This document shows positions 3,083-64,000 of a stretch of 64,000 nucleotides of DNA, one piece after another; the first letter of the stretch is position 1; every line of letters starts with the position of its first letter. This DNA comes from a virus, in IMG/VR virus record IMGVR_UViG_3300025652_000055, positions 3,272 to 67,271 of that record, one strand, 5' to 3'. The notes beneath the pieces are model-generated. The model did no database searches. It worked only from the letters and a program-made list of their open reading frames with translations, and was not told where the DNA came from. The position numbers and the translations under genes are program-made.

Positions 3083-3565
3083 ATGGCATTTAAATTACCA
3101 AATAAAAATATAAAATCAGCGATATCTACAACTGGCTATAAGTCTAATAGTCCGGATGTAGATAACGACGTTAATGTAATACCTAGTAGTAAAATTACTA
3201 TGAAAGGTGTTGACTTTCCTGTTAAAGGTGTAGGTAGCAATGGTGTTACAAAAAACATGAAACCAGGAGAAGATTATGATTTTGGTGATGCTGACTATGT
3301 TGTTGAAACTCCTATAAAGCAGTCTAACAAAAGAACTAAAGGTAAAGGTAGACATTTTAGAAAATCAGAAGAAGGTGCTGGTATGACATCAGCCGGTGTT
3401 GCTTCATATAGAAAACAAAACCCAGGTAGCAAGCTAAAGACAGCTGTAACTGGTAAAGTAAAAGCTGGTAGCAAGGCTGCTGGACGTAGAAAATCTTTTT
3501 GTGCTAGATCGAAAGGCTGGACAGGTGAAAGAGGTAAAGCTGCTAGACGCAGGTGGAAATGTTAA
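3083..3565 (+). CDS. two-part protein with C-terminal DUF6321-like basic domain
   Basis: NPGSKLKTAVTG...RRKSFCARS...RRWKC follows a TPIKQ junction. Confidence 0.6.
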   Translation: MAFKLPNKNIKSAISTTGYKSNSPDVDNDVNVIPSSKITMKGVDFPVKGVGSNGVTKNMKPGEDYDFGDADYVVETPIKQSNKRTKGKGRHFRKSEEGAGMTSAGVASYRKQNPGSKLKTAVTGKVKAGSKAAGRRKSFCARSKGWTGERGKAARRRWKC

Positions 3566-3894: not shown

Positions 3895-4344
3895 ATGCCT
3901 AAAAAGAAATTTAGTGAAACAAAAGTCGGAAAGTTTTTATCAAAAGCTGCTCCAGGTATATTAGGAACCGTGGGTGATATATTACCTGATAACGGTTTAT
4001 TTGGTGTTGTAAAAAATCTTATATCAAAAGATGAAGCAATGCCAGTTGAAGACAAAGAAAAAGCTTTAAAGCTATTAGAACAAGATATGGTTGAGATGCA
4101 AGAAATAAGTAAACGTTGGGCCAGCGATATGAAAAGCGATTCATGGCTCTCAAAAAATACACGTCCACTTACTTTAATATTTTTAACTGTCTCAATGGTT
4201 CTATTGATATTCTCAGATAGCATAGGTGAATCATTTGAAGTTGATTCTGGTTGGGTTGATTTATTAAAGTCTTTATTAATAACTGTATATGTAGCTTATT
4301 TTGGTTCGCGAGGAGCTGAGAAGTTTAAGAAAATATCTAAATAA
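3895..4344 (+). CDS. holin (3TM/GTA-holin-like)
   Basis: RWASDM..DSWLSKNTRPL, two TM segments, AYFGSRGAEK. Confidence 0.7.
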   Translation: MPKKKFSETKVGKFLSKAAPGILGTVGDILPDNGLFGVVKNLISKDEAMPVEDKEKALKLLEQDMVEMQEISKRWASDMKSDSWLSKNTRPLTLIFLTVSMVLLIFSDSIGESFEVDSGWVDLLKSLLITVYVAYFGSRGAEKFKKISK

Positions 4345-36000: not shown

Positions 36001-39000
36001 CTAAAGGTTATGATCCTAGTTCATATTTGTCGGCTAAACTACAAGCTTACAAGAATAACTCAGCTGATGTTCAAGCAGAGGAATTACTTACTTTCTTTTC
36101 AGATGGTATGGCTCAAGGTTTCATAGGTTTTGAAGAAAACACGTTTACTAAAATAAAAGATGTTTTAAGACAAACGTTTCAAAATTTAGGTATAAAAGGT
36201 ATAGAGTTTAATACAGGTAGAGATGTTTATAACTTTCTAAAAGACTACAACAAGTCAATGGCTAGTGGTAAAGGTATTAAAGGTTCTATATTAGATGTAG
36301 CTAAAAAAGGTGCTAAAGGTAGTTTAGTTAACGGTATAGGATCTCAAACAGCTTTAGAAAGAAAGGTTAACAAATCTTTTGATACAAAAGCTAAAGGCTA
36401 TGGATCTGAAATAGTAAATTTTTATACACCATATATAAAGAAAGCGGTATTTGGTAATAACAAAAGTCTTTACGGTAATAAAGCTTTAGTTGGTCAAGTT
36501 AGAGAAGTTCAAGCTAAGATACTTGACATAGTTAAAAATCACAACAACTCTGATCCTATATCTCTTACAGATAAAATAGGTAGATTATTTGGACCTACTG
36601 GTACTAGTGAAAACACTAAAAGTTCTAAAGATTTATATAGTAGTACTGAAATGATCATGGGACTTGACGAGTCTATGACAGAAGATGATAGAATAGAACA
36701 CATGAGTAACATGTCTGAGTCTAATAAAACTAGACTAGGACAATTAGTTGGTTACGAGTATACTAATGAAGTAAAGAAGAGATTAAGAAAGTTTAGTAAG
36801 ATACCAGGGTTTAAAGCTGTTGAAGAAAGCATTTTAGCTGATATAACTTATGGTACTACAAAACAAGGTAAAAGCGGTAAAGAAGTAAAAGTACAAGGTA
36901 TTGTTGGTATAGTTGAAAGATACAGTGGAGCTATAGAGCTTAACAGATGGATCAATGGTCAGCTAGATAATAAAATACAAGGTATAGTAGAAAGCTACAA
37001 CTTAGGTAAAGAAGTTCAAGAGTTTAGTACAAAAAGTGCTAAAGGTCCAAGTATAAACAAAGGTAAATATACTAATATATTAAAGACAAACGCTGTACCT
37101 AGTTTTGCTAAAAGACAATTAAAGGAAAGTGTTATTAAAGTTGTTAGAGTTTTAAAAACATCTGTATTCAAAGCAACTTCTAAAAACGTAACAATAGCTC
37201 CTTGGATAAGAGAGTTTAAAAAAGAAGTAGGTAAACAGAACGATATAGTTTTTAAAAAAATAATGGGTGGTTTAGCTAATGATAAATTCTCTAAATACTT
37301 ATTAAAAAACAAAAAGGTTATATTAGAAAATATGACAACCACTTGGTTAGGTGGAGCAATACCAGCGGCTGTACAAAAGAAGGTTGATGGTAGATGGACA
37401 CCAGACTGGAAAGGTAAAAAAGTAGACTTTGAGTCTAGCGCAGAGACAGGTAGAACTTCTGGGTTAGAAATGGTAAAAAGAGATACTGATATATCTGATG
37501 AAAAGTTTTTATCTTACTTTGGCGAAGTTGTAGTTAAAGATGGTAAACCTACATTAAAATCTTTAACTAGAGGTAGAAAGGAGTCTTTAGCTAAAGCTAT
37601 GGCTGAAGAAACTGGTTTAGAACTTGTAGCAAATGATTCCGAGGTATTTAATGAACTAACCAGTAATCAAGATAGACTAGGTGTAGTATCAGCTTCTATA
37701 GACATACTTGATATAGGTAGAGATATAGAAAGAGGAAACGCTAAGTCAAACAAGTCACCAGAAGTAGTACAAGAGGCTTTGTTTAACATGATGAATGAAG
37801 CTATATTAAATGGTGGTAATTCAGATTCTTATTTGCTTTACAAGTCAGAGCAACCTAAAGATATACAGGCTTACGCTGAAGAGATTGGCTTAGGTACTTA
37901 TTTTGATGAAGGTAAAACTGGTTATAAAAAACCTTTACTAGAGTGGTCTGATATGCCAGTGCTGTTTGGGCCAGCAAAAGAAATATACAAAAGAACCATA
38001 ACAAACAAAACCAAAGATGAGTCAATGAAACAATTGGCTGATTTTTCAAACGCTTTGATAGACGTATTACCTCCAGATTTAGTTGATGCTGTTGGTAATG
38101 ATATGTTTGCTATAGTTTACGCATACCTAGATGGTGCAGAGAAAAAATCTGACGGTAAGCCAGGTAAGTATAATTATTTAGCTAAAAAAAGAAAAGCAAA
38201 AGCAGATCAAGAATCTGATATAGAGTTAACTTTTAACCCTGCAGACATAAGAATATTTAACTCTGCTAGTGGTGTTATGAAGCAAATAACAACTATACTT
38301 AAAAAAGATATAACAGCAGCTGAAAAGCAGGCTATGGTTGAAGAGAAATTTGGAGACATAATAGCTAAAGCTGAAATAGCGAACATAGAAGCTTTAAAGT
38401 ATATAATGGACAAAGCTACTGAGCTTATAGCTGAAGATCCTTCGCTAGCTCCTGGTTTTATGAGGTGGATGGAAACTTCAACAAACAACGTAAAAGCTCA
38501 AAGAGGTTTAACAAGGTTACCATTAATACAATATGTTGATGGATCAATGGAAGCAGATGAAACTCATGTGTTTTATGATCAAGCTAAGGAATTTGCTATA
38601 GAAAGATCTACAGCTATGTATGATAAGCTTCCAGCTAAAACTAAAAAGGAAGTAACACTACAGCAATTTATAGATGAAAGATTAGAAAAACATCCACCAG
38701 AAAAACATTTAAAGTTCAAGGGTGAGCATGTTGATCCAGCTGCAAACGTTATGCTTGACTTAGCTAAAGTTGCATTAAAAACAGCTGCTAAGATACATCA
38801 AATGGGTTTACTTAACAAGCCTAAGCAATTACGTGCTATAAATACTTTTGCTGGGTTAGAGATGGATAAAATACTACGTACTTATAGTCAAACACTTGGT
38901 TCAGAGTTATTTTCAGCTATTCAAGATAACTCACTAGGTACAACGTCTAAGCTTGGTGACTTTAGAGGACTAACAGTTGATCCTAATTCCTACAACACGT

Positions 39001-41969
39001 TCTTAACGTCGGAAGGCATACAAGCTGTAGAGTATATAAAAAGAGAAAACTTATCTATAGATTTTATAAATAAAATAATAAGTAGAGTAAATGTAGATAA
39101 TTATATAAATAATCAAAATAGGACTGACGCATTAAACAATGCCCTTGACCCTAATAAGAAGGTAAAAGGTATTTCTGTTTTTGATTTTGATGATACGTTG
39201 GCTCAGACCAAGTCTAATGTGCTATACACAATGCCTGACGGCACTAAGGGTAAAATAGATGCTACACAGTTCGCGGCTCAATCGGCTGACTTAGAAGCTC
39301 AGGGAGCTGTTTTTGATTTTAGCGAGTTTAGCCAAGTAATAGACGGTAAAAAAGGTCCTTTAGCTGATTTAGCTCTAAAACGTCAAGGCAAGTTTGGTAG
39401 TGGGGATATTTTTGTTTTAACCGCAAGACCTCAAGCCTCCGATATTGCTATTCAAAAGTTTTTAAAAGAAATAGGTTTAGATCTTAAAATAGCTAATATA
39501 ACAGGTTTAGCAGACGGCACGGCTCAAGCTAAGGCAGATTGGATAGTGGGTAAAGCGGCTGATGGTTACAATGACTTTTATTTTGCTGACGATGCTATTA
39601 AAAATGTCAAAGCAGTTAAAGAAGCACTTAGTGTTTTAGATGTTAAAGGTGATGTGCAACAAGCTATAGTAAAATCAAACAAAGGTAGAAGCCAAGAGTT
39701 TAACGAGATGCTAGAGGCTAGAACTGGTATTGATGCCGTAAAAACTTTCTCTAAAGCAAAAGGAGAAATGTTAGGTAGAGGTAAAGGTAGGTTTAGATAT
39801 TTTCTACCTCCATCAGCAGAAGACTTTATGGGTCTAATGTACAACTTTTTAGGTAAAGGTAAAAAGGGTGATGCAGATAAAAAGTGGATAGAAGATAACT
39901 TAATGAAGCCTTACTCAAGAGGTATTGCTAATATAGAAAGAGCTAAGCAAGCGGTACAAACTTCTTACAACGCTTTAAGATCAGAATTTAAAGATGTAAG
40001 AAAAAAACTAGGTAAGCAAATACCAGATTTAGGTTTTACTTACGATCAAGCTATTAGAGTATACTTGTACACTAAAGCAGGACATAAAATACCTGGATTA
40101 TCTAAAAGTGATCTAAAAGATTTATTAACTATAGTAAGCGGAGATCAAAGAGTTAAACTATTTGCAGACAGTGTTGGTTTAATATCTAATCAAAAAGAAG
40201 GTTACACTGCCCCAGGAGAATATTGGTTGACAGGTAGTATAGCTAGTGACTTAAATGATATAACACAAAAAGTAGGTAGAAAAGAGTTTATAAAAGAGTT
40301 TATAGATAATTCAAAAGAAATATTTAGTGAAGAAAACTTAAACAAGATTGAGGCTGCTTATGGTCAAAACTTTAGAGAATCACTAGAAGACATACTCTAT
40401 AGAATGGAGAATGGTACTAATAGGACTTTTGGTAAAAACAAGCTTGCAAACAAATGGAGTAATTGGTTAAACAACTCTGTTGGTGCTATAATGTTTTTTA
40501 ACATGAGATCTGCTTTGCTACAAACTCTGTCAACTGTAAACTTCGTTAACTGGACAGATAATAACCCTGCTAAGGCCGCGTTGGCGTTTGCAAACCAACC
40601 TCAATACTGGAGAGATTTTGCAACTATATTTAATTCAGATAAATTAAAACAAAGACGTAAAGGTTTAAAGACAGATGTAAATGAGGCTGAACTAGCTAAT
40701 GCAATGGCTGGTAGCAAGAACAAGGCACAAGCTGCTTTTCAATACTTATTAAAAATAGGTTTTACACCTACTCAAATAGCGGATAGTTTTGCTATAGCTT
40801 CAGGTGGCGCTACAATGTACAGAAATAGAATAAAAACATATTTAAAACAAGGCATGGATCAAAAACAGGCTGAAGATAAAGCTTGGGAAGATTTCTCTAT
40901 GTTAGCAGAAGAAACTCAACAGTCATCTGATCCGTCTTTAATATCCGCACAGCAAGCTGGTCCTTTAGGTAGGTTTGTTTTAGCTTTCCAAAATACACCT
41001 ATGCAGTACAATAGGCTTATTAAGAAAGCTGGTAGAGATTTAATAAATGGTAGAGGAGACTGGAAAACTAATGTTTCTAAGATAGCTTACTATGGAGCAA
41101 TACAAAACTTTATATTCTCTGCTATGCAGAAAGCTTTATTTAGTATGTTGTTTGAAGATGAAGAAGAACGATGTGAAGGTTTAGAAGGTAAGAAACTTGA
41201 GGCGTGTCAAAATAAAGAGTGGAAAGTAGATGTTGGTAATAGTATGGCAGACAGTATTCTTAGAGGTAGTGGACTTTATGGTGCTGTAGGAGCAACGCTT
41301 AAAAACGCTATAAGACAATTTAGAAAACAAGAAAATAAAGGATTTACAGCAGATCACACGTACACTATATTAGAATTGGCTAACTTATCCCCACCGTTGG
41401 GTTCTAAGCTAAGAAAAGTATATAGCGCTATACAAACCTATAGATTTGAGAAAGATGTTATAAAAGAAAGAGGATTAAATTTAGATAGCCCTACTTGGTC
41501 TGTAATAGGTAATCTAGTAAGTGGCGGTACAAATGTTCCTTTAGACAGGCTTGTTAAGAAGTTTAACAACATAAATGCAGCACTAGACGAGAGGAACGCT
41601 ATATGGAAAAGAGCTTTCTTTGCATTTGGATGGAATACATGGGATTTAAAAGCTGAGCCTAACGAAACACATGAGCAAATAAAATCAGACGCTAAAGCTA
41701 AAAGAAAAGAAGCTGGCAAGATAAAAGCTAAAGAAACTAGAGAGCAAAACAAAATAAAAGAAGCTCAACGTTTAGCAAACATGGACCCTATAGAAAGAGC
41801 TGAATACGAGGCTGAGAAAAAAAGAAAAAGATCTGAGTCTGCTAAAAAAGGTGCTGAAACAAGAAGAATAAATAAAAGAATAAAAGACTCTATAGCTAGG
41901 TCTTCGATTTTAGAAAGACAAGATAGATTATTAGAAGAGTACAGAAAGAAAAACAAAAAAAACAAATAA
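33024..41969 (+). CDS. giant multidomain virion (ejected) protein with zincin HEVLH, sigma-region-2-like segment and HAD domain
   Basis: 2981 aa; HEVLH at 35898-35912; HAD motifs VFDFDDTL, VLTAR and YFADD at about 39170-39600. Confidence 0.7.
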   Translation: MPDYIVGDRKYTEEEANTAASGLGMDMSTWKQTFNAKVVAGNQLDPAENAEANAGSENNQASNQGESGSFGNPSSSVSLLNRDEIKEETPEWISQIYEENPYDPSAQDQQVLMGGGFEHNINLLKKEQKKYTMFDVKSSDIDEEIKRLEFEQNNTGERNRTRRSRNHREVKNKLSEYDDQITRIYSDESLNIDEQKTLELAVIEDKNTYLNFGISKAEKKDYEENLKILENISKTTDNEANSSGFQIHSDNEEEQIELTQQVEDEILNTVGSDRRAKQRLIGSVSDEAITATMGFEQKEQIINNAKMQVISKASDKAQKDMARLQNDLYKDFDSEDDLTQAAVDDFNLKAKEIQDTFYNLAGQYDFDLATKAFMTTNFETTAEFQEWRDKKIEDGEFVSSAADFGATITQGLRDFGTEYFYGTASMVNRLALYGLTKAGVDTQGMYDRLNYMDDLVDSSFLKNNTFGTSDVGGSLWKDGVNVRSSFKTLGNMLPFTLALAASVKKGDLRKLKDVYKLFGKNKSGLKYGNIGLNVPKIKIGGKTLLEGGRKTIGGINMNTIRMGQTAYMGTIRDNYNEAIDMGLDEGQALAYSNMASFATSVVQGIMPDANFFNTAAGKGLLNTFKGDLSKAASKKAIKEVSKQFANNLIGEIGEEEMELLLTDMAKLTVGLSNQTGFLDAQTQFETLMGTLILSGSTSVATSTVGGGYSNVKKQVYLEARANITGVMETLKANKEYNQNLYDRAKAAGKQDLMDRAKLDLDQANAALQHGNDIKNAINLGGEFVTDKEIDLYIQKQKLLDAKKNLGAKATATVEMMIDGVATTFTGDLQGINEKISEIDGEIAGGRVTQNKEEISKKTTEASEKTAKKLGIDMNTFEDDDVSVEGSKTADQKVKDRIDEINAGLPERNKGKSKEEQDQKVNVKRVGDNGFVVQYKDGTQEIIINKTKSEKNSETTVAQHEVLHSVLNETLMKNPKAAQAMAGVLKEQVDSMIAKGYDPSSYLSAKLQAYKNNSADVQAEELLTFFSDGMAQGFIGFEENTFTKIKDVLRQTFQNLGIKGIEFNTGRDVYNFLKDYNKSMASGKGIKGSILDVAKKGAKGSLVNGIGSQTALERKVNKSFDTKAKGYGSEIVNFYTPYIKKAVFGNNKSLYGNKALVGQVREVQAKILDIVKNHNNSDPISLTDKIGRLFGPTGTSENTKSSKDLYSSTEMIMGLDESMTEDDRIEHMSNMSESNKTRLGQLVGYEYTNEVKKRLRKFSKIPGFKAVEESILADITYGTTKQGKSGKEVKVQGIVGIVERYSGAIELNRWINGQLDNKIQGIVESYNLGKEVQEFSTKSAKGPSINKGKYTNILKTNAVPSFAKRQLKESVIKVVRVLKTSVFKATSKNVTIAPWIREFKKEVGKQNDIVFKKIMGGLANDKFSKYLLKNKKVILENMTTTWLGGAIPAAVQKKVDGRWTPDWKGKKVDFESSAETGRTSGLEMVKRDTDISDEKFLSYFGEVVVKDGKPTLKSLTRGRKESLAKAMAEETGLELVANDSEVFNELTSNQDRLGVVSASIDILDIGRDIERGNAKSNKSPEVVQEALFNMMNEAILNGGNSDSYLLYKSEQPKDIQAYAEEIGLGTYFDEGKTGYKKPLLEWSDMPVLFGPAKEIYKRTITNKTKDESMKQLADFSNALIDVLPPDLVDAVGNDMFAIVYAYLDGAEKKSDGKPGKYNYLAKKRKAKADQESDIELTFNPADIRIFNSASGVMKQITTILKKDITAAEKQAMVEEKFGDIIAKAEIANIEALKYIMDKATELIAEDPSLAPGFMRWMETSTNNVKAQRGLTRLPLIQYVDGSMEADETHVFYDQAKEFAIERSTAMYDKLPAKTKKEVTLQQFIDERLEKHPPEKHLKFKGEHVDPAANVMLDLAKVALKTAAKIHQMGLLNKPKQLRAINTFAGLEMDKILRTYSQTLGSELFSAIQDNSLGTTSKLGDFRGLTVDPNSYNTFLTSEGIQAVEYIKRENLSIDFINKIISRVNVDNYINNQNRTDALNNALDPNKKVKGISVFDFDDTLAQTKSNVLYTMPDGTKGKIDATQFAAQSADLEAQGAVFDFSEFSQVIDGKKGPLADLALKRQGKFGSGDIFVLTARPQASDIAIQKFLKEIGLDLKIANITGLADGTAQAKADWIVGKAADGYNDFYFADDAIKNVKAVKEALSVLDVKGDVQQAIVKSNKGRSQEFNEMLEARTGIDAVKTFSKAKGEMLGRGKGRFRYFLPPSAEDFMGLMYNFLGKGKKGDADKKWIEDNLMKPYSRGIANIERAKQAVQTSYNALRSEFKDVRKKLGKQIPDLGFTYDQAIRVYLYTKAGHKIPGLSKSDLKDLLTIVSGDQRVKLFADSVGLISNQKEGYTAPGEYWLTGSIASDLNDITQKVGRKEFIKEFIDNSKEIFSEENLNKIEAAYGQNFRESLEDILYRMENGTNRTFGKNKLANKWSNWLNNSVGAIMFFNMRSALLQTLSTVNFVNWTDNNPAKAALAFANQPQYWRDFATIFNSDKLKQRRKGLKTDVNEAELANAMAGSKNKAQAAFQYLLKIGFTPTQIADSFAIASGGATMYRNRIKTYLKQGMDQKQAEDKAWEDFSMLAEETQQSSDPSLISAQQAGPLGRFVLAFQNTPMQYNRLIKKAGRDLINGRGDWKTNVSKIAYYGAIQNFIFSAMQKALFSMLFEDEEERCEGLEGKKLEACQNKEWKVDVGNSMADSILRGSGLYGAVGATLKNAIRQFRKQENKGFTADHTYTILELANLSPPLGSKLRKVYSAIQTYRFEKDVIKERGLNLDSPTWSVIGNLVSGGTNVPLDRLVKKFNNINAALDERNAIWKRAFFAFGWNTWDLKAEPNETHEQIKSDAKAKRKEAGKIKAKETREQNKIKEAQRLANMDPIERAEYEAEKKRKRSESAKKGAETRRINKRIKDSIARSSILERQDRLLEEYRKKNKKNK

Positions 41970-58381: not shown

Positions 58382-58624
58382 TTATTTGAATTTGTTTAGT
58401 TCTTTTTCTATTTCTATTATTTTTTTCTTTAGTTTTTCACAGGCACTATAATTTTCTTTATCTAAATTATAATCTAACTCCGTCATAGCTGTAGCTAATT
58501 GGGTTAACAGGCTTTGTTCCTGAAGTTCACGAGTGTCATACACGCCGTCTGCTTGTTGAATTATACCGTCAAGTACTAATTCTGCTATTTTACTAGCCAA
58601 CTCGTCAATTTGTTTGTCTGTCAT
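58382..58624 (-). CDS. hypothetical protein (UVR-like C-terminus)
   Basis: Likely start MTDKQ just downstream of the promoter motif; ENYSACEKLK. Confidence 0.55.
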   Translation of the reverse strand: MTDKQIDELASKIAELVLDGIIQQADGVYDTRELQEQSLLTQLATAMTELDYNLDKENYSACEKLKKKIIEIEKELNKFK

Positions 58625-58629
58625 ATTTA

Positions 58630-58660
58630 TATTATCGGTTCTCGTTCGTATTATTTTTGT
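58630..58660 (-). promoter_or_regulatory. putative early promoter, copy 1
   Basis: ACAAAAATAATACG-AACGAGAACC-GATAATA. Confidence 0.75.
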
Positions 58661-59103
58661 ATAGGCCATTCTTTGTAGCCATAATCAGGTGTATTATATC
58701 TTATATCAACATTATATGAAGGTAAAACAAATACGTTCTCAGACGAATAGTTGTCATAACAACTAATCCAAACGTCAGACTTACCTACCCATATTATATA
58801 AGTATAGTGATGGTCAATACTGTCTACACTAGGATAAAGATATTGACTATTGTAGTGAAAATCTGCAACCAAATGCGCAGCTATTCTCGATCCATCACCG
58901 AAATTGTTGAACTTTTTATATTCTTGCATGTAATTCACCCATCTAGATAAGTCAACACCAAGACCTTCAGGATAGCCGTCGTGATGTAAATACATGTTTA
59001 CATAGCTTTTGTCAGCCAGCAAAGATGGTTTACAAGCAAAACCTAGCTCGTTGTTTTCAGCTTCTGATCTGTCAACAACCATTGTTATACTTCTTGTACT
59101 CAT
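58651..59103 (-). CDS. conserved phage early protein
   Basis: MSTRS...YLHHDGYPEGLG. Confidence 0.65.
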   Translation of the reverse strand: MSTRSITMVVDRSEAENNELGFACKPSLLADKSYVNMYLHHDGYPEGLGVDLSRWVNYMQEYKKFNNFGDGSRIAAHLVADFHYNSQYLYPSVDSIDHHYTYIIWVGKSDVWISCYDNYSSENVFVLPSYNVDIRYNTPDYGYKEWPIQK

Positions 59104-59122
59104 AATTATATTTTAAAATTAG

Positions 59123-59195
59123 GTGCGCAGGGAGGACTCGAACCTCCGACCTCTAGCTTATGAGGCTAGCGAGCTGCCTGCTGCTCTACCGCGCA
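59123..59195 (-). tRNA. tRNA with CAU anticodon (Met)
   Basis: Full cloverleaf: TGCGCGG/CTGCGCA, GAGC/GCTC, CTAGC-CTCATAA-GCTAG, GGAGG-TTCGAGT-CCTCC. Confidence 0.9.
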
Positions 59196-59207
59196 ATGTG
59201 TATAGCA

Positions 59208-59477
59208 TTAGTCAAGTAATACCATATATGCTTTTACATTATTTTTCTTAAACCAGTCTAGTGCTTTATCAAAATGATTAATCTGCTGTTTAGTAGGCTT
59301 AATTCCCATAGCCCACACGTGATTACAACCCATAATGAAGTCGTATAAAGATAGCTCTATGTTATTAAGTTCATAAGTTTCACCACTAAAAGGGTTAGTA
59401 ACTTTATCACCTTCGTTATACACAGAGCCATCAAACCACTTAGGTATTTTTTGTTCAACACTATTCATCTTCAGCAT
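59208..59477 (-). CDS. hypothetical protein
   Basis: ORF with VTNPFSGE...AYMVLLD. Confidence 0.6.
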   Translation of the reverse strand: MLKMNSVEQKIPKWFDGSVYNEGDKVTNPFSGETYELNNIELSLYDFIMGCNHVWAMGIKPTKQQINHFDKALDWFKKNNVKAYMVLLD

Positions 59478-59817
59478 CTATTACATTAAAACAATCTTCT
59501 ACATAGTCACATATACATTCTTCTAAGTCAGACTCACCGTCGAATTCTATATTAGATAATCTTAGTTGGTTATCGTAGTCAATTTCAAAGTCATAAGTAT
59601 AAGAGTCTATGTTATCAAAACTTACCTGTTGTACTGCTTGATGTACAGCTTCTCTTAACTCATCTATCTGAGAAGGATAAAGCTTAGGTTTACTAATGTC
59701 AGCTAGTTTTTTCTGAGCTTCTATTAGATCGTCTTTTAGTACTTTTGCGTTTAACTCTACTGAGTTTAAAGTTGTTTCCAGTTTGTCAACTTTTTCTTGT
59801 AATTCTATTTTAGTCAT
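59461..59817 (-). CDS. hypothetical protein
   Basis: Coiled-coil N-terminus, acidic C-terminus. Confidence 0.6.
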   Translation of the reverse strand: MTKIELQEKVDKLETTLNSVELNAKVLKDDLIEAQKKLADISKPKLYPSQIDELREAVHQAVQQVSFDNIDSYTYDFEIDYDNQLRLSNIEFDGESDLEECICDYVEDCFNVIDAEDE

Positions 59818-60029
59818 AGTTCTTTATTTATTATATTATCTATTTTATTTATTAAGTAATCTTTGTCTGACATATTGCCATAATATTCTTGTAAATGCCA
59901 AGCTATATCGTGTAGCTTGTTTTCTAAAGCTGTAATATATATTTTATCATCTTGTTTAATAGGCATTTGTCTTGGATCTATATCACCAGACTCTACTAAT
60001 TCGTGGTATTTTTTTATTGTATCACTCAT
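59814..60029 (-). CDS. hypothetical protein
   Basis: 71 aa, coupled to its neighbours. Confidence 0.55.
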   Translation of the reverse strand: MSDTIKKYHELVESGDIDPRQMPIKQDDKIYITALENKLHDIAWHLQEYYGNMSDKDYLINKIDNIINKEL

Positions 60030-60268
60030 TAGCTTTTGTCTATAATTTTATCACCATACATAAAGCTATATGAATCTAGCTCCCAGCTGTTAACTCCGCC
60101 ATATGTCAATAGGTCTCTAACCTCGTCAATAGTCAAGGCTGACCATATGTATTTTGACATTAGTGTATATTTTAATCTTTTAGCTGTAGCGTATTCTCTA
60201 GCGCTAGCTCTTAATTTTAGCTTTACATCTGGTAAAAGCTCGTCGTAAATTGTTTTTAAATCTGCCAT
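60029..60268 (-). CDS. hypothetical protein
   Basis: Likely start MADLKTIY just downstream of the promoter motif. Confidence 0.6.
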   Translation of the reverse strand: MADLKTIYDELLPDVKLKLRASAREYATAKRLKYTLMSKYIWSALTIDEVRDLLTYGGVNSWELDSYSFMYGDKIIDKS

Positions 60269-60279
60269 TTGTTTTATTA

Positions 60280-60310
60280 TATTATCGGTTTTTATTCGTA
60301 TTAAATTTGT
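60280..60310 (-). promoter_or_regulatory. putative early promoter, copy 2
   Basis: ACAAATTTAATACG-AATAAAAACC-GATAATA. Confidence 0.75.
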
Positions 60311-60315
60311 ATTAG

Positions 60316-60393
60316 TGGAGGTGGACAGAATCGAACTGTCTTCCGTAATAGTTCCATATAGGCTTTCTATCACGTCAAAACCAGGTCACCCCC
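60316..60393 (-). ncRNA. mini-tmRNA-like RNA (tRNA-like domain only)
   Basis: GGGGGTG/CACCTCC-A acceptor with G3.U70; ACCTGGTTTTGAC without a D-stem; helix GTGATAG/CTATTAC; T-arm GACAG-TTCGATT-CTGTC. Confidence 0.75.
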
Positions 60394-60397
60394 ATTA

Positions 60398-60502
60398 CGT
60401 AGTTATCTCCGTTTCCATGAGTTCATAACGATCCCTCACCACTTCAACGATCGGACTTCCACCGTGCATGCAGTTAATTACTCTGCAACCCGTGATACTA
60501 CG
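60398..60502 (-). ncRNA. putative structured RNA, module A
   Basis: Termini pair (CGTAGTATC / GATAACTACG); internal TGCAG/CTGCA and CGATC/GATCG stems. Confidence 0.45.
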
Positions 60503-60503
60503 A

Positions 60504-60591
60504 CTTATAAAATTAAAGGATCTTCGTCAGCTTAACCACGTATCTCCTCGCTGAGTTCCTACAGCCATACTGAGCCCTTCACATTTATAAG
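60504..60591 (-). ncRNA. putative structured RNA, module B
   Basis: Termini CTTATAAA/TTTATAAG plus an inner GAAGGG/TCCTTT pairing. Confidence 0.35.
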
Positions 60592-60595
60592 ATTT

Positions 60596-60686
60596 TAGTA
60601 ACTAGCGAAGGAATCGAACCTTCATACTCGTCAGTAGTAATGAACTCTGTTTAACTTAATAACACCTGTTACATCCATACCTAGTT
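60596..60686 (-). ncRNA. tRNA-like element (acceptor stem plus T-arm)
   Basis: AACTAG../GCTAGTT-ACTA; GAAGG-TTCGATT-CCTTC. Confidence 0.6.
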
Positions 60687-60863
60687 TACCGGCTATTGTG
60701 TGATCACTAATCGTATCTTTCGCCATCGGTTTTCGTATTTATATAGAGCCATATACCGTAAAACTCTAAGCTAGCTATTCACTTATGTAATTTAGGTACC
60801 ATTTATCGTGGTATCTTTACGGTATACACCCACCTAAATCCTAATTAAGCTACTCGTCTAGCG

Positions 60864-61052
60864 TCATCTTCTGCGCTGCGATCTATGAATTATAGCGCTA
60901 AGTTCTTGACTTACTATTTGAATCGTGTTACCTGTTTTGTGGTAAGTAATAGGAACATAAGAATGTTTTTTTACTTCAGAACAAGGAGGACATGTTTTAT
61001 ATCCTAGATTTAATCGATAAGGGTGGACTTCGTCGCCGCATTTACAGTACAT
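60864..61052 (-). CDS. DksA/TraR-type C4 zinc-finger protein
   Basis: CKCGDEV...RL....TCPPC. Confidence 0.6.
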   Translation of the reverse strand: MYCKCGDEVHPYRLNLGYKTCPPCSEVKKHSYVPITYHKTGNTIQIVSQELSAIIHRSQRRR

Positions 61053-61079
61053 AGTTTATTATTTTAATTGTTACATTTA

Positions 61080-61110
61080 TATTATCCGAAAGTTATCGTA
61101 TTATTTTTGT
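61080..61110 (-). promoter_or_regulatory. putative early promoter, copy 3
   Basis: ACAAAAATAATACG-ATAACTTTCG-GATAATA. Confidence 0.75.
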
Positions 61111-61301
61111 AAAGGAAATCTTTCTTGTGATAAATACATGTACTCAATAGCTTTTGCCATAACATAATCGTGTAAGTCATTATAAGAATCACCTTCAACG
61201 TGTTGGTCAGCGATCTGCCAGTGTATACTGTCTCTCATTAATTCCATAGAAACATCAGCAATTGCTTGTGATATTTCATCTATTTCTTTCATTCTACTCA
61301 T
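61101..61301 (-). CDS. hypothetical early protein
   Basis: 66 aa ORF. Confidence 0.55.
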   Translation of the reverse strand: MSRMKEIDEISQAIADVSMELMRDSIHWQIADQHVEGDSYNDLHDYVMAKAIEYMYLSQERFPLQK

Positions 61302-61491
61302 AAAATCTATCTTTTATATTTAATAAAGCTAATTTATAGCCAAAGTTTTTAGCCATTTGCATTAATAAGAAATCATTAGTGCCATGATTAGCTTGTGTAA
61401 ATTGTTCTAGTGTTTGTTCGTTAGGTGTGGCTACAATGCCCTTGTCTAACATATGTAGCTCGTGCTCTACAAAATCTTTTACTTTTTCCAT
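61294..61491 (-). CDS. hypothetical early protein
   Basis: 65 aa ORF. Confidence 0.55.
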   Translation of the reverse strand: MEKVKDFVEHELHMLDKGIVATPNEQTLEQFTQANHGTNDFLLMQMAKNFGYKLALLNIKDRFYE

Positions 61492-61492
61492 A

Positions 61493-61747
61493 TTATTTAT
61501 CGTATATTGTTACTTCAACCCAACCTTTTTCAGAGTGACCTGCTTCGCATTTAACTCCTTCGTCTGTTAGTTGTTTTTCTAGTTTTTCTGCTGCTTGCCA
61601 TAAAGATGGTTCAGGTATCTCGTCATGGTCATCATCATACATAACCTCACCTCTACATTGGTAAAACTGATCTTTACCATCGTCTTGACTTACAAATTCA
61701 AAATCCCATCCGTTGATTCTTACATCTTGTTTCATCCACTCTTTCAT
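61493..61747 (-). CDS. hypothetical early protein
   Basis: 84 aa acidic ORF. Confidence 0.55.
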   Translation of the reverse strand: MKEWMKQDVRINGWDFEFVSQDDGKDQFYQCRGEVMYDDDHDEIPEPSLWQAAEKLEKQLTDEGVKCEAGHSEKGWVEVTIYDK

Positions 61748-61749
61748 AT

Positions 61750-61881
61750 TTATTCTTGATTTAATAATTCATCTATTTCACAGAACAGCATATCGTCTAT
61801 GTCTGCTTTACTGTATTTGTTTCCGTCCCACGTAGACACTAGCTCGTAAGCTAAATCCCACGGATTTTTTATTTTACTCAT
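61750..61881 (-). CDS. small hypothetical protein (43 aa)
   Basis: MSKIKNPWDLAYELV...; fills the gap. Confidence 0.55.
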   Translation of the reverse strand: MSKIKNPWDLAYELVSTWDGNKYSKADIDDMLFCEIDELLNQE

Positions 61882-61891
61882 AATTTATATT

Positions 61892-62317
61892 TTAATAATT
61901 CCATACAGACACTCCGCCGTACATTGTTAAGTTTTTTAAGTTGTAGTTTCTTTTACAGAATTCTACTATGTATATAAGTCTTGCTAGCGGATCAGTTATT
62001 AGTTCTCTAGCATAAGCATTATACTTCATTGTCTTAAGCTCACCACCATTCAATACAGTGTATCTTTGATGTTGCTTATATACTTTGTTTAGTTGATATA
62101 TTCTATCGCTAGAATTACATCTTCTAACATAACCTGTCTTATATGAGGCGAACTGATCGCCATTAGGTAACACAAATTGTCTTGTGCCATTTTTCTTTTG
62201 TCTGTCAGTAGTCATTTCTTTAATGTTATACTCGATAAACATACGCTCAGCGAATAAGTCTACTAGTTCTGCACGTCTCTGTTTCCAGTCCATATGCTCT
62301 TGATATAAATCTCTCAT
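61892..62317 (-). CDS. hypothetical early protein
   Basis: 141 aa ORF. Confidence 0.6.
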   Translation of the reverse strand: MRDLYQEHMDWKQRRAELVDLFAERMFIEYNIKEMTTDRQKKNGTRQFVLPNGDQFASYKTGYVRRCNSSDRIYQLNKVYKQHQRYTVLNGGELKTMKYNAYARELITDPLARLIYIVEFCKRNYNLKNLTMYGGVSVWNY

Positions 62318-62571
62318 AGTGTTTTTATTATTAATTTTAATTGCTTGTTGTCAAACTTCTTACTTGTTTCTTGCCACATACGGTTGTGAGTGAACTTTTT
62401 GGACTTAGCAAAATTAGATTTTTGCCTTGTTACAACTTTGTTGTACTCTTTCTCAGTGAGTCCACTGCACGATCCGCTGTGAAGGATAAGACGTCTATGC
62501 CCATCTTTCCTTAGTTTACGCTGTGCTTCGACATAGGCACACAGCTCTTTCATGTTACTTGGATTAGACAT
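62314..62571 (-). CDS. hypothetical early protein
   Basis: 85 aa basic ORF. Confidence 0.55.
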   Translation of the reverse strand: MSNPSNMKELCAYVEAQRKLRKDGHRRLILHSGSCSGLTEKEYNKVVTRQKSNFAKSKKFTHNRMWQETSKKFDNKQLKLIIKTL

Positions 62572-62764
62572 ATGACCAGATTGAAGGGTTATATTCTACG
62601 TAAGTAAGACCTTTGTGATTGAACCACGAGGTGATACCTTCTTGATCTTTGTCTTCGTTGTAAATGAAAGCAAATCTTTTTGGTAGTTCGCCGACGGAAT
62701 AGCCTTTGTAGTTTTGGCCGGCGAGTTTAATAATTTTGTTTGATTGGAATTTAATTGATTGCAT
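62564..62764 (-). CDS. hypothetical early protein
   Basis: 66 aa, first gene after promoter copy 4. Confidence 0.55.
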   Translation of the reverse strand: MQSIKFQSNKIIKLAGQNYKGYSVGELPKRFAFIYNEDKDQEGITSWFNHKGLTYVEYNPSIWSYV

Positions 62765-62790
62765 AGTGTATATATTATTTGTTACATTAT

Positions 62791-62821
62791 TATTATCGGT
62801 TCTCGTTCGTATTATTTTTGT
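62791..62821 (-). promoter_or_regulatory. putative early promoter, copy 4
   Basis: 31/31 identical to copy 1. Confidence 0.75.
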
Positions 62822-62939
62822 AATACAACATAGAATCTAACTCATTATTATTATACCTCGCCCAGTACTGTCTTTCTACAGCCTCTATTTGAGATCTCGT
62901 TATCTTGAACAGTGGTTTATGTGAATGCTTTCTCTTCAT
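62793..62939 (-). CDS. small hypothetical protein (48 aa)
   Basis: MKRKHSHKPLF...; ATGA overlap with the upstream gene. Confidence 0.45.
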   Translation of the reverse strand: MKRKHSHKPLFKITRSQIEAVERQYWARYNNNELDSMLYYKNNTNENR

Positions 62940-63133
62940 CTGTAGTCGACGTTAGGTTTAACATTAGCGGCAACACCTTGTCTGAATTTCCACTCGTTTT
63001 GTCTGTATTTAGCATCAGTACACCATTTTTTCCATGCTTTACTTGCAGGCTTTTCACCCCACTTAGCTTCGAATTCTTGTACTTGTTTTAATTTTGCAGC
63101 GATCTGTTCCGCTGGATAGTCATTATATTGCAT
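62936..63133 (-). CDS. hypothetical early protein
   Basis: 65 aa ORF. Confidence 0.55.
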   Translation of the reverse strand: MQYNDYPAEQIAAKLKQVQEFEAKWGEKPASKAWKKWCTDAKYRQNEWKFRQGVAANVKPNVDYR

Positions 63134-63137
63134 AGTA

Positions 63138-63275
63138 TTATTTATTAGTTGATTTATAGAACTCTATTCTGTCAAGAACATCTTGTCTAGTTATTTTCTT
63201 TTCTTCGAGTTGTAATAGTATATCGTGTGACATATCTATTTGCTTGCCATTTTGGCATGTAAGTATATATTGCAT
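63138..63275 (-). CDS. small hypothetical protein (45 aa)
   Basis: MQYILTCQNGKQIDM...; AATACT-ATG leader shared with neighbours. Confidence 0.55.
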   Translation of the reverse strand: MQYILTCQNGKQIDMSHDILLQLEEKKITRQDVLDRIEFYKSTNK

Positions 63276-63287
63276 AGTATTATTTAT

Positions 63288-63344
63288 TAGTAGACATAGT
63301 GAGAGTCGAACTCACCGCACATTATTGTACACGCCAATATGTCT
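63288..63344 (-). ncRNA. minimal tRNA-like element
   Basis: AGACATA/TATGTCT-ACTA perfect 7-bp stem; GTGAG-TTCGACT-CTCAC; only 22 nt between the arms. Confidence 0.65.
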
Positions 63345-63402
63345 TTTGTTCTATCCAGTTAAGCTCGTTGCCCGCAGGTTCGGATAGTCACCTTTTTGTA
63401 CA

Positions 63403-63522
63403 CTAGTAGAAATCGTAGTAGATATCCATAACTTTAGACTTTTGCTCGTCAGTTAATTTAGTGTAATGTTTGTCGTAGAGATTCCACGAGATTTTTAGTA
63501 ATGTATAAGAGAATGTTGACAT
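63403..63522 (-). CDS. small hypothetical protein (39 aa)
   Basis: MSTFSYTLLKISW...; AATACT-ATG leader. Confidence 0.5.
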   Translation of the reverse strand: MSTFSYTLLKISWNLYDKHYTKLTDEQKSKVMDIYYDFY

Positions 63523-63743
63523 AGTATTATTATTTAAGTTATTATTTAGTTATTTTATATTTAATATAATTAGTATTTAATAGTTTAGTTATATTATTAG
63601 TTTGATATTGAGATAATATAATTATTTTATTGTTTAAAGATTTAATATTATAATGGTTATTAGTTAGAATATTAATAGTTTTTTTGATTTGATATTTGTT
63701 AGTTGATAGTTTGATAATATATAGTTTTTATTGGTTACATTTA

Positions 63744-63774
63744 TATTATCTGATTTTAACCGTATTTTATTTGT
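63744..63774 (-). promoter_or_regulatory. putative early promoter, copy 5
   Basis: ACAAATAAAATACG-GTTAAAATCA-GATAATA. Confidence 0.7.
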
Positions 63775-63777
63775 AAA

Positions 63778-63957
63778 TTAATCACATATACCACATGGAA
63801 TGGAATCCATCGCTGAGTAATCTACTTGACCTGTTATCATCATGAAGATGATGAAAGCTATTCCGCCAAAGGCTAAGGTTGCAAGTGATGCTATAAATCC
63901 TTTAATAGCGATGTCTGTTACTTTGATAAGTACGTAGTGTATAAATTTTCTGTTCAT
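63778..63957 (-). CDS. small membrane protein (59 aa)
   Basis: One TM helix; C-terminal CGIC. Confidence 0.55.
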   Translation of the reverse strand: MNRKFIHYVLIKVTDIAIKGFIASLATLAFGGIAFIIFMMITGQVDYSAMDSIPCGICD

Positions 63958-63980
63958 ATTATTATTTTATTATTAGTTAT

Positions 63981-64000
63981 TAGTAGACACCGGTGGAATC
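63981..64000 (-). ncRNA. 3' end of another tRNA or tRNA-like element (truncated by the window)
   Basis: ...GATT-CCACC-GGTGTCT-ACTA, same spacing as the element at 63288. Confidence 0.5.

What the first reader, a model, noticed from the sequence alone, without database searches (positions are those of the whole stretch)
60313..60393. Mini-tmRNA: tRNA-like domain of tmRNA with the whole mRNA-like domain missing
Seen: the minus strand reads GGGGGTG ACCTGGTTTTGAC GTGATAG [AAAGCCTATATGGAA] CTATTAC GGAA GACAG TTCGATT CTGTC CACCTCC A CTA. Known: tmRNA has a G3.U70/A73 alanine acceptor, a stemless D-loop ending UU(U/C)GAC, helix 2a, a short GGAC-like linker and a T-arm, and all of these are present. 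Here helix 2a closes a 15-nt loop rather than the roughly 250-nt pseudoknot/tag region. Inference: an alanylatable SmpB-binding RNA that either sequesters SmpB to block trans-translation or releases stalled ribosomes without tagging. MLD-less tmRNAs are known from some mitochondria; I am not aware of a characterised phage example.
Basis: partly seen in the sequence, partly recalled or inferred. Interest (0 to 1): 0.9.

Follow-up and report, generated by a model that had tools for sequence, protein, structure and literature searches.

The report
Phage mini-tmRNA, tRNA-like domain only
An uncultured phage of Flavobacterium-type bacteria carries an 81-base gene for a cut-down ribosome-rescue RNA (tmRNA) that keeps only the alanine-accepting end; it is real and conserved, belongs to the same family as one published phage example, and probably interferes with or hijacks the host's rescue of stalled ribosomes.

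Summary
Window 60313-60393 (minus strand) matches Rfam tmRNA (RF00023) at 66.1 bits, against a cut-off of 47 (E 1.4e-23). All 304 interior model positions are replaced by 11 nt. ARAGORN misses it.

It is one member of a large phage RNA family:
- A strict pattern found 93 stretches in IMG/VR but only 6, all in MAGs, among 185,579 species genomes.
- Across 70 distinct sequences, 95.2% of cells pair (shuffles 67.2%), and every helix-2a pair covaries.
- The published "TLD only" tmRNA of mycobacteriophage DS6A hits the same model with the same interior design.
- This scan has reported the same kind before on other DNA.

Local context:
- The genome is a lytic-type podovirus related to Flavobacterium and Cellulophaga phages, with no SmpB and no integrase.
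- The gene ends an ORF-free array of structured RNAs.
- In 80 loci fetched by a neighbouring protein, 12 carry this mini-tmRNA. Another 40 carry a different G3.U70 frame with swappable inserts.

Function is inferred: competition for host SmpB, or tag-less rescue. Expression was not shown. Verdict: new member of a known kind.

The parts
60313..60393 (-). Mini-tmRNA gene (81 nt including the 3-nt CUA trailer). The mature RNA is probably 60316-60393 plus an added CCA.
   Evidence: Rfam RF00023 66.1 bits; own model R1 82.2 bits; fold.
60387..60393 (-). Acceptor stem, 5' strand (RNA positions 1-7, G3 included).
   Evidence: It pairs with 60317-60323, and G3.U70 is the wobble pair.
60375..60386 (-). 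Stemless D-loop region ending GGUUUUGA(C).
   Evidence: matches the tmRNA consensus GG.UUCGAC.
60344..60374 (-). Helix 2a (8 bp: 60367-60374 with 60344-60351). It encloses an AAAG bulge (60363-60366), a 2-bp hairpin with a 5-nt loop (60354-60362) and AA (60352-60353).
   Evidence: All 8 helix-2a pairs covary in the family. The A-rich bulge is kept in most of the 70 distinct sequences and in DS6A.
60324..60340 (-). T-arm: 5-bp stem and 7-nt UUCGAUU loop.
   Evidence: 100% of cells pair and 4 of 5 pairs covary.
60316..60323 (-). Acceptor stem 3' strand (60317-60323) and discriminator A73 (60316).
60313..60315 (-). CUA trailer in place of an encoded CCA. The same N73-CUA trailer follows this phage's tRNA-Met and its other tRNA-like RNAs.
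60394..60861 (-). ORF-free array of structured RNA modules directly upstream, in the same probable transcription unit. It includes a tRNA-like module (60594-60689) and a module with conserved flanks and a variable interior (60768-60861).
60864..61052 (-). 62-aa Cys-rich early ORF that precedes the RNA array. It was used as the RNA-independent anchor to fetch relatives.
   Evidence: No Pfam or PHROG family.
61064..61111 (-). Copy of a 48-nt promoter-like repeat upstream of the 62-aa ORF. It is the probable start of the unit that ends with the mini-tmRNA.
   Evidence: family D1, 5 copies.
60264..60311 (-). Next copy of the 48-nt repeat. It begins 2 nt after the mini-tmRNA and precedes the 79-aa ORF 60029-60268.
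59122..59195 (-). Phage tRNA-Met (CAU), 1.1 kb downstream on the same strand.

Best explanation
[quoted passage not shown] It belongs to the same RNA family as the published 'TLD only' tmRNA of mycobacteriophage DS6A.

Shown here: its identity, its structure, its conservation with covariation, its near-restriction to phage sequence, and the absence of a phage SmpB, an integrase or any conserved neighbouring protein.

Inferred:
1. It is transcribed early, as the last unit of an RNA array that starts at the promoter-like repeat at 61064-61111.
2. Host tRNA enzymes mature it: RNase P at G1, a 3' cut after A73, then CCA addition.
3. Host alanyl-tRNA synthetase charges it through G3.U70 and A73, and it binds host SmpB and EF-Tu.
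4. It has no resume codon, tag or stop codon, so it competes with host tmRNA for SmpB and for stalled ribosomes. This lowers ssrA tagging and degradation of proteins during infection.

I put identity at about 0.9 and this particular mechanism at about 0.5.
For: - Rfam tmRNA at 66.1 bits against a cut-off of 47, with the interior deleted.
- The fold is as described.
- Family size: 93 IMG/VR stretches match a strict pattern, giving 70 unique sequences of 62-86 nt.
- Structure counts on 70 distinct rows: 95.2% of cells paired against 67.2% in shuffles and 41-53% with slid partners. 17 of 22 pairs change on both sides, covering 458 cells.
- RNA-independent sampling through the 62-aa ORF gave 148 relatives, of which 80 loci were kept. 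In these, 12 loci have this mini-tmRNA with compensatory changes in helix 2a and the T stem. G3.U70 is kept in 45 of 49 distinct matches, while pair 4:69 is CG 32, GC 11, AU 4, UA 1.
- DS6A 28478-28557 hits the same model at 57.6 bits with the same A-rich bulge and hairpin.
- Only 6 pattern hits occur in 185,579 species genomes, all in MAGs. In three of those MAGs a full-length tmRNA with a different TLD coexists.
- No SmpB, tyrosine integrase or serine recombinase is found in the 67-kb genome that CheckV rates complete.
- No protein family lies within 2.5 kb of the RNA in more than 4 of 51 mini-tmRNA subfamilies, so the partners are probably host factors.
- Literature: a TLD-like molecule strongly inhibits tmRNA, perhaps by titrating SmpB (Mao et al. 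2009, as cited in PMC4131195; passage read; the original paper is not held). DS6A's form is said to inhibit endogenous tmRNA in E. coli (PMC11915505, passage read).
Against: - No experiment or read data here shows a discrete transcript. Contigs from RNA libraries cover the flanks, but none listed spans 60313-60393.
- Alanylation and SmpB binding cannot be tested with these tools.
- CCA is not encoded (CUA).
- I could not fetch a Flavobacteriia host tmRNA or SmpB for comparison.
- The gene is dispensable in the lineage. Of 80 protein-anchored relatives, only 12 have it. The six loci examined among those most similar by that protein (89-95% identity) have none within the stretch fetched.
- Pairs 1-4 and the last T-stem pair were fixed by my search pattern, so their invariance in the pattern-derived set is by construction.
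- The same phage carries other tRNA-like RNAs without alanine identity. A role unrelated to trans-translation is therefore possible.
Confidence: 0.55

Rival explanations
1. Productive tag-less rescuer or alanine-tailer. The charged mini-tmRNA with host SmpB enters stalled ribosomes and accepts the nascent chain. It then either lets the chain be released without a degradation tag, or adds one or several alanines through repeated rounds without a template. This would free ribosomes for phage translation when host mRNA is being destroyed.
For: [quoted passage not shown]
- CDS-less tmRNAs persist in jakobid mitochondria together with SmpB and are thought still to help with incomplete mRNAs (PMC11915505, passage read).
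- G3.U70 is kept while its neighbouring pair covaries, which argues that charging matters. According to PMC4131195, inhibition did not require chargeability, so conserved chargeability fits this rival slightly better than pure titration.
Against: - With no stop codon or resume codon, release would need another factor, which is neither shown nor found near the gene.
- There is no in vivo evidence.
- The interior 'AAA-GCC' cannot serve as a conserved mini reading frame. From my own reading of the sequences printed, an in-frame stop follows in some members but not in this one or its close relatives. I made no systematic count.
Confidence: 0.25
2. A tRNA-shaped handle with no role in trans-translation. 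It could be a processing and stability module (RNase P / 3'-end punctuation) for the early RNA array. It could also be a decoy or sponge for a host tRNA-acting enzyme or defence.
For: - It sits at the 3' end of a 470-nt ORF-free array of structured RNAs.
- In one relative (L004) the two upstream modules and the mini-tmRNA abut without spacers.
- This phage has other top-half tRNA mimics without alanine identity (60594-60689, 63288-63344). All of them, and its tRNA-Met, share the N73-CUA trailer.
- In 40 of 80 related loci a different G3.U70 frame carries variable 25-80-nt inserts. One of these inserts matches 29 nt of this window's array at 96.6% identity.
Against: - A mere processing handle would not need the tmRNA-specific D-loop, the GGAC-like linker or the G3.U70 wobble. 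Yet this RNA scores 66 bits on the tmRNA model.
- The same design recurs in 51 sequence subfamilies in unrelated genomic contexts, and in DS6A where it stands alone.
Confidence: 0.15
3. A relic: a fragment of host ssrA picked up by imprecise excision or kept as an attachment site, or a decayed tRNA-Ala gene, with no function.
For: ssrA is a common integration site, and phages can carry ssrA fragments (general statement in PMC9004378, passage read).
Against: - The genome has no integrase or recombinase.
- Both halves of the TLD are present and precisely joined.
- There is strong compensatory covariation.
- Hits are about 170-fold more frequent per contig in viral than in genome collections: 93 in 2.9 million against 6 in 32.2 million contigs.
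- Where a host-like tmRNA is in the same MAG, its TLD differs.
- ARAGORN and the tRNA model do not claim it.
Confidence: 0.03

Closest known systems
'TLD only' (CDS-less; 'Standard, no CDS') tmRNA of Mycobacterium phage DS6A. Sources: tmRNA Website tmID 11587; Hudson, Lau & Williams 2014, PMC4131195; Mao et al. 2009, as cited there; PMC11915505.
   Same: The architecture and size are the same (80 nt against 81 nt): a G3.U70 acceptor, a stemless D-loop, helix 2a, an A-rich 3-nt bulge followed by a GC-rich hairpin, and a T-arm. DS6A hits the model built from this family at 57.6 bits over the full length. Both are in phages and neither has a tag reading frame.
   Different: The host phylum differs (Actinomycetota against probable Bacteroidota), as do GC content (0.70 against 0.47) and context. 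DS6A's stands alone between two CDSs and is not annotated in the record. This one ends a multi-module RNA array. The sequences are too far apart for BLAST: a blastn search of the phage collection, which holds DS6A, gave no match.
Bacterial tmRNA (ssrA; Rfam RF00023).
   Same: The tRNA-like domain passes the family model above its gathering score. It carries the alanine identity elements.
   Different: It lacks the whole mRNA-like domain: resume codon, tag reading frame, stop codon and pseudoknots. It is 81 nt, against 389-390 nt for the full-length examples fetched here. CCA is not encoded.
CDS-less mitochondrial tmRNA of jakobids, and the roughly 65-bp plastid forms (Jacob et al. 2004, in the reference list of PMC3929946; PMC11915505).
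   Same: These are natural tmRNA derivatives reduced to the tRNA-like domain with no tag.
   Different: They are organellar and co-occur with a dedicated SmpB. The mitochondrial forms are classed as 'Permuted, no CDS' in PMC11915505, whereas this one is of the standard, non-permuted type. They were not compared by sequence here.
Engineered TLD fragments used for SmpB co-crystals and in vitro trans-translation (T. thermophilus 25 + 34 nt joined by a UUCG loop; reviewed in PMC3929946).
   Same: The content is nearly identical: acceptor, D-loop, a few pairs of helix 2a, and T-arm. This shows that such an RNA can bind SmpB and act on ribosomes.
   Different: They are laboratory constructs. The natural phage RNAs mostly carry a conserved A-rich bulge and an extra hairpin that the constructs lack.

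Membership tests
tmRNA (Rfam RF00023) | Scores at or above the curated gathering score of the family covariance model. | tested here: met
   66.1 bits against 47, E 1.4e-23, model 1-374.
tmRNA (Rfam RF00023) | 7-bp acceptor stem with G3.U70 and discriminator A73 (alanine identity). | tested here: met
   Read from the sequence and the fold. G3.U70 is in 45 of 49 distinct matches of RNA-independent relatives.
tmRNA (Rfam RF00023) | Stemless D-loop (GG..UU.GAC), helix 2a, and a T-arm with a 7-nt T-loop. | tested here: met
   Covariation in helix 2a (8 of 8 pairs) and the T-arm (4 of 5 pairs).
tmRNA (Rfam RF00023) | mRNA-like domain: resume codon, tag reading frame ending in a stop codon, and flanking pseudoknots. 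| tested here: not met
   304 model positions are replaced by 11 nt. The interior is a 15-nt bulge plus hairpin. It is therefore a derivative form, not a complete tmRNA.
tmRNA (Rfam RF00023) | Charged with alanine; binds SmpB and EF-Tu. | not testable with these tools
   No RNA-protein tool was available. No SmpB gene in the phage.
TLD-only ('Standard, no CDS') tmRNA, DS6A type | Non-permuted tmRNA tRNA-like domain of about 60-90 nt with no tag CDS. | tested here: met
TLD-only ('Standard, no CDS') tmRNA, DS6A type | Homology or shared architecture with the DS6A element. | tested here: met
   The model built from this family finds DS6A 28478-28557 at 57.6 bits, E 3.4e-12, full length, with the same A-rich bulge and hairpin.
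TLD-only ('Standard, no CDS') tmRNA, DS6A type | Inhibits endogenous tmRNA when expressed. | not testable with these tools
   Reported for DS6A or a similar molecule in PMC4131195 and PMC11915505 (passages read). Not tested for this RNA.
Canonical tRNA-Ala | Cloverleaf with D-stem and anticodon arm, called by tRNA finders. | tested here: not met
   No ARAGORN call. In the Rfam clan competition tmRNA wins. There is no anticodon arm in the fold.
ssrA-derived attachment site or fragment | Adjacent integrase; only one end of ssrA, identical to the host gene. | tested here: not met
   No PF00589 or PF00239 in the genome. Both TLD halves are present. In three MAGs the TLD differs from the co-resident full-length tmRNA.
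mt-tmRNA (jakobid type) | Best match to the mitochondrial CDS-less model. | tested here: inconclusive
   One lower-scoring clan member was suppressed under the tmRNA hit. Its name was not printed.

The most novel reading that the evidence does not exclude
The alanine-type tRNA-like domain may be a swappable chassis in this phage lineage. At the same genomic position, 12 of 80 relatives carry the 'empty' mini-tmRNA. Another 40 of 80 carry a second G3.U70/A73 frame whose helix holds variable structured inserts of 25-80 nt, exactly where tmRNA holds its mRNA-like domain. At least one of those inserts recurs as a free module in this window's upstream array.

If the frames are charged and bind SmpB, these would be natural 'tm-like' RNAs that carry non-coding RNA cargo to stalled ribosomes, or use rescue factors for another purpose. 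The mini-tmRNA might also add template-free alanine tails, as TLD plus SmpB does in vitro.
Probability: 0.12. Interest if true: 0.85.

Novelty: new member of a known kind. Interest (0 to 1): 0.5.

Why it matters
tmRNA-SmpB is the main ribosome-rescue system of bacteria. How phages deal with it is little studied.

- In print I found one phage TLD-only tmRNA (DS6A). The 2025 tmRNA database counts nine 'Standard, no CDS' sequences in all (PMC11915505).
- This case shows that the form is a widespread, conserved phage RNA family. One strict pattern alone gave 51 sequence subfamilies. The family spans hosts as far apart as mycobacteria and probable Flavobacteriia.
- The family has a conserved A-rich bulge that the laboratory TLD constructs lack.

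It offers a natural minimal substrate for asking three questions: whether phages block, bypass or exploit trans-translation; whether charging matters; and how small a functional tmRNA can be.

Tried and rejected
- **Expression.** One run search and one lay of four freshwater-labelled metatranscriptome runs. Contigs at 99-100% identity cover 59252-60294, 60627-61047 and 60679-60866. No listed contig spans 60313-60393. These are contigs, and DNA may be present in RNA libraries, so this shows neither expression nor silence of the mini-tmRNA.
- **Cultured relatives.** Megablast of 59000-61500 hit only a tRNA-Met in Mycobacterium phage Phabba. Blastn of the 81 nt and tblastn of the 62-aa ORF against 50,697 phage records gave no match. 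The two nearest records by terminase (MW202828, Flavobacterium phage elemoF) have no tmRNA hit above the cut-off. I did not test the Cellulophaga, Tenacibaculum or Maribacter phage records.
- **Host tmRNA comparison.** No Flavobacteriia tmRNA or SmpB was therefore compared.
- **Sigma-70 scan.** The promoter count equalled the shuffles, 11 against 11.4, and no minus-strand terminator was found. The host probably uses other promoter types, so I give this no weight.
- **Neighbouring small ORFs.** They have no informative Pfam or PHROG family.
- **Conserved protein partner.** Clustering the ORFs within 2.5 kb of 100 mini-tmRNAs found none. The best cluster covers 4 of 51 subfamilies.
- **Second frame ('type 2').** None of the 20 loci tested (of the 40 that carry it) reaches the Rfam tmRNA gathering score. 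I do not call those RNAs tmRNA.
- **Hidden tag.** I considered whether the interior AAA-GCC is a resume codon and set it aside. This member has no in-frame stop. This is my own reading of the sequences, without a systematic count.
- **Mao et al. 2009.** The paper is not held. What I say of it comes from passages of papers that cite it. Supplementary tables of PMC11915505 that list the nine 'Standard, no CDS' sequences were not seen.

Full report
**Observation**

Its minimum-free-energy fold has these parts (-26.8 kcal/mol, z -2.57):
- a 7-bp acceptor stem with a G3.U70 wobble;
- 12 unpaired D-loop bases;
- an 8-bp helix 2a;
- an AAAG bulge;
- a 2-bp hairpin with a 5-nt loop;
- AA, then a 3-nt linker;
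- a 5-bp T-arm with a 7-nt loop;
- discriminator A.

Rfam's tmRNA model (RF00023) hits exactly these coordinates. It scores 66.1 bits against a gathering score of 47 (E 1.4e-23 for the whole window). It spans model positions 1-374, with 304 interior positions replaced by 11 nt. A lower-scoring match from the same clan was suppressed, so no tRNA-type model does better. ARAGORN reports only tRNA-Met at 59122-59195.

**The genome**

The window is bases 3272-67271 of a 67,271-bp IMG/VR virus record that CheckV rates complete. GC content is about 35%.
- The plus-strand half encodes terminase, portal, structural and tail-fibre proteins. A 1832-aa protein has a crAss-type muzzle domain.
- The minus-strand half encodes ribonucleotide reductase, thymidylate synthase, MazG, primase-helicase, an Erf-type annealing protein, an exonuclease, a sigma factor and a DNA ligase.
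- The terminase finds 87 phage records: 68 Flavobacterium, 15 Cellulophaga, 2 Tenacibaculum, 1 Maribacter and 1 uncultured. The best is 62.5% identical, and the Flavobacterium 'elemo' podoviruses are 44%.
- The host is therefore probably a member of the Flavobacteriia. This is an inference.
- The genome has no SmpB, no tyrosine integrase and no serine recombinase.

**Local context**

All genes around the RNA are on the minus strand.
- A 48-nt promoter-like repeat occurs five times in 58400-64000.
- One copy (61064-61111) precedes a 62-aa Cys-rich ORF (60864-61052).
- About 470 nt without a credible ORF follow (60394-60861), then the mini-tmRNA.
- The next repeat copy (60264-60311) starts 2 nt after the mini-tmRNA and precedes a 79-aa ORF.
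- No minus-strand terminator-like site lies between them.
- I therefore infer one early unit: promoter, small ORF, RNA array, mini-tmRNA.
- The neighbouring small proteins match no informative family.
- The three bases after the discriminator are CUA. The same N73-CUA trailer follows this phage's tRNA-Met and two other tRNA-like elements. This fits a shared 3'-end maturation followed by CCA addition (inference).

**Family found by pattern**

- A narrow pattern found two near-identical copies. A wider one found nine loci.
- A general pattern fixed only G1-G4, parts of the D-loop, the T-loop and CUCCA. It found 93 stretches in IMG/VR, giving 70 unique sequences of 62-86 nt.
- A covariance model built from them (R1) realigned 95 matches, 70 of them distinct.
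- On that alignment 95.2% of cells form standard pairs. Column shuffles give 67.2 +/- 0.9%, and partners slid by 1-3 columns give 41-53%.
- 17 of 22 pairs change on both sides, covering 458 cells. All eight helix-2a pairs and four of five T-stem pairs covary.
- Caveat 1: pairs 1-4 and the last T-stem pair were fixed by the pattern.
- Caveat 2: the alignment was fitted to the model's structure.

**An unnoticed interior design**

After helix 2a comes a 3-nt A-rich bulge: A in 60, A in 53, and A or G in 59 of the 70 distinct rows. A short GC-rich hairpin follows. About eight or nine of the shortest members simply close helix 2a with a loop.

**Restriction to phages**

- The same pattern found only 6 stretches in one genome for each of 185,579 species, all in MAGs.
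- That is 93 per 2.9 million viral contigs against 6 per 32.2 million genome contigs.
- In three of those MAGs a full-length tmRNA of 389-390 nt is also present. Its tRNA-like domain differs from the mini form. The mini forms are therefore not fresh copies of the local ssrA.
- ARAGORN made an overlapping call for only 4 of 100 mini-tmRNAs. Those calls were long (about 300-650 nt) tmRNA predictions plus one tRNA-Val call. They do not match the mini form.
- 18 of 100 have a tRNA or tmRNA call within 1 kb.
- 24 of 73 unique sequences encode CCA, and 12 have CUA.
- No protein family lies within 2.5 kb in more than 4 of 51 sequence subfamilies.

**An RNA-independent test**

Pattern hits cannot prove conservation of what the pattern fixes. 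I therefore fetched relatives through the 62-aa ORF. This gave 148 relatives, of which the best 80 loci were kept.

Model R1 found 60 matches in them:

| Class | Loci (of 80) |
|---|---|
| This mini-tmRNA ('type 1') | 12 |
| A second frame ('type 2') | 40 |
| Both | 0 |
| Neither, at E up to 0.01 | 28 (some loci are cut short) |

- Type-1 copies show compensatory changes in helix 2a and the T stem, and one D-loop variant.
- Type 2 has a different D-loop and linker but again G3.U70 and A73. It carries variable inserts of about 25-80 nt in the helix.
- None of the 20 type-2 loci tested (of the 40) reaches the Rfam tmRNA cut-off.
- Over all 49 distinct matches, pair 3:70 is G.U in 45. The adjacent pair 4:69 is CG 32, GC 11, AU 4, UA 1. 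A wobble kept next to a freely compensating pair argues for selection on alanine identity.
- The gene is accessory. The six loci examined among those closest by the ORF (L118-L120, L122-L124; 89-95% identity) have the array's tRNA-like module but no mini-tmRNA within the DNA fetched.

**What is known**

- Earlier notes of this scan pointed me to the DS6A precedent, and I checked it.
- PMC4131195 lists 'Mycobacterium phage DS6A (TLD only)'. [quoted passage not shown] 2009 (passages).
- PMC11915505 counts 9 'Standard, no CDS' and 72 'Permuted, no CDS' sequences among 97,179. It says the DS6A form inhibits endogenous tmRNA in E. coli (passages).
- I fetched DS6A 27500-29500. No RNA is annotated there. 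Model R1 hits record positions 28478-28557 at 57.6 bits, with the same bulge-and-hairpin interior.
- This window's RNA and DS6A's are therefore one family.
- PMC3929946 (passages) reports that SmpB with a TLD fragment supports polyalanine synthesis in vitro without a template. It also reports that a 25 + 34-nt TLD was co-crystallised with SmpB.
- Three literature searches found no paper describing a widespread phage family of such RNAs: tmRNA, phage and the two domain names; tmRNA with DS6A; tmRNA, phage-encoded, SmpB, trans-translation and tRNA-like from 2015 on.

**Mechanism**

Identity and structure are shown. The rest is inferred from established tmRNA biology: RNase P and 3'-end maturation with CCA addition, charging by AlaRS through G3.U70, and binding to host SmpB and EF-Tu.

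With no resume codon, tag or stop codon, the RNA cannot complete trans-translation.
- The best-supported outcome is competition with host tmRNA, as reported for the DS6A-like molecule.
- The main rival is productive use: tag-less release or alanine tailing. The conserved chargeability favours this slightly, and the in-vitro polyalanine result allows it.
- A third reading treats it as a tRNA-shaped handle or decoy within the RNA array.
- A relic or attachment-site origin is nearly excluded.

**Expression**

Four freshwater-labelled metatranscriptome runs hold flanking parts at 99-100% identity. No listed contig spans the 81 nt. Small structured RNAs are often lost from such libraries, so this decides nothing.

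**Verdict**

This is a real, conserved phage mini-tmRNA and a new member of a known but barely studied kind. This scan has found the same kind before on other DNA. The additions here are:
- membership in the DS6A family, shown by a shared model;
- the conserved A-rich bulge;
- the near-absence of the family from cellular genomes;
- the lack of any conserved protein partner;
- alternation, at one genomic position, with a second alanine-type frame that carries variable inserts.

Noticed in passing
window 60594-60689 (-): A tRNA-like module of about 96 nt. It has a perfect 5-bp T-arm, a 6-7-bp acceptor-like stem without G3.U70, discriminator A and a CUA trailer. It scores only 15.8 bits on Rfam tRNA. 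Its ends are conserved and its interior is swapped among relatives, with a compensatory T-stem change in L009. It is present even in close relatives that lack the mini-tmRNA.
   Followed up: partly
window 60768-60861 (-): A module with conserved 5' and 3' flanks and a variable interior whose stem covaries among relatives (window, L002, L004, L005, L006, L008). No Rfam family matches it. In L004 it abuts the tRNA-like module, which in turn abuts the mini-tmRNA.
   Followed up: partly
L126-L196 (40 loci, e.g. L143:3318-3424, L194:3190-3283): A second alanine-type tRNA-like frame (G3.U70, A73) at the same genomic position in sister phages. It carries variable 25-80-nt inserts. L194's insert matches window 60418-60446 at 96.6% over 29 nt. 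By eye, other inserts resemble array modules of the window's clade. None of the 20 loci tested passes the Rfam tmRNA cut-off.
   Followed up: partly
window 63288-63344 (-): A 57-nt 'top-half' tRNA mimic: a 7-bp acceptor-like stem, a small interior, a 5-bp T-arm, then A-CUA. It has no alanine identity.
   Followed up: no
window 58614-58661, 60264-60311, 61064-61111, 62775-62822, 63728-63775: Five copies of a 48-nt repeat on the early (minus) strand, each ahead of a gene. It is probably a phage-specific early promoter. It does not fit the sigma-70 consensus scan.
   Followed up: partly
window 59120-59125, 60313-60316, 60594-60600, 63288-63291 (-): All tRNA-like genes of this phage, the true tRNA-Met included, are followed by the same trailer (discriminator, then CUA).
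   Followed up: partly
window 33024-41969 (+) and 23252-28750 (+): A 2981-aa ORF with no Pfam family at all. A 1832-aa ORF with a crAss-type muzzle C-terminal domain, which hints at kinship with crAss-like podoviruses.
   Followed up: no
L053:4049-4116 (+): A second, weaker (30.4 bits) tRNA-like-domain match about 500 nt from that contig's mini-tmRNA.
   Followed up: no
L119:~3900-3990, L124:~3330-3410: In these close relatives a canonical-looking tRNA gene, rather than a mini-tmRNA, follows the tRNA-like module directly.
   Followed up: no
L116 (DS6A 28478-28557): The published DS6A TLD-only tmRNA carries no feature in its GenBank record. It lies in the gap between gp33 and gp34.
   Followed up: yes
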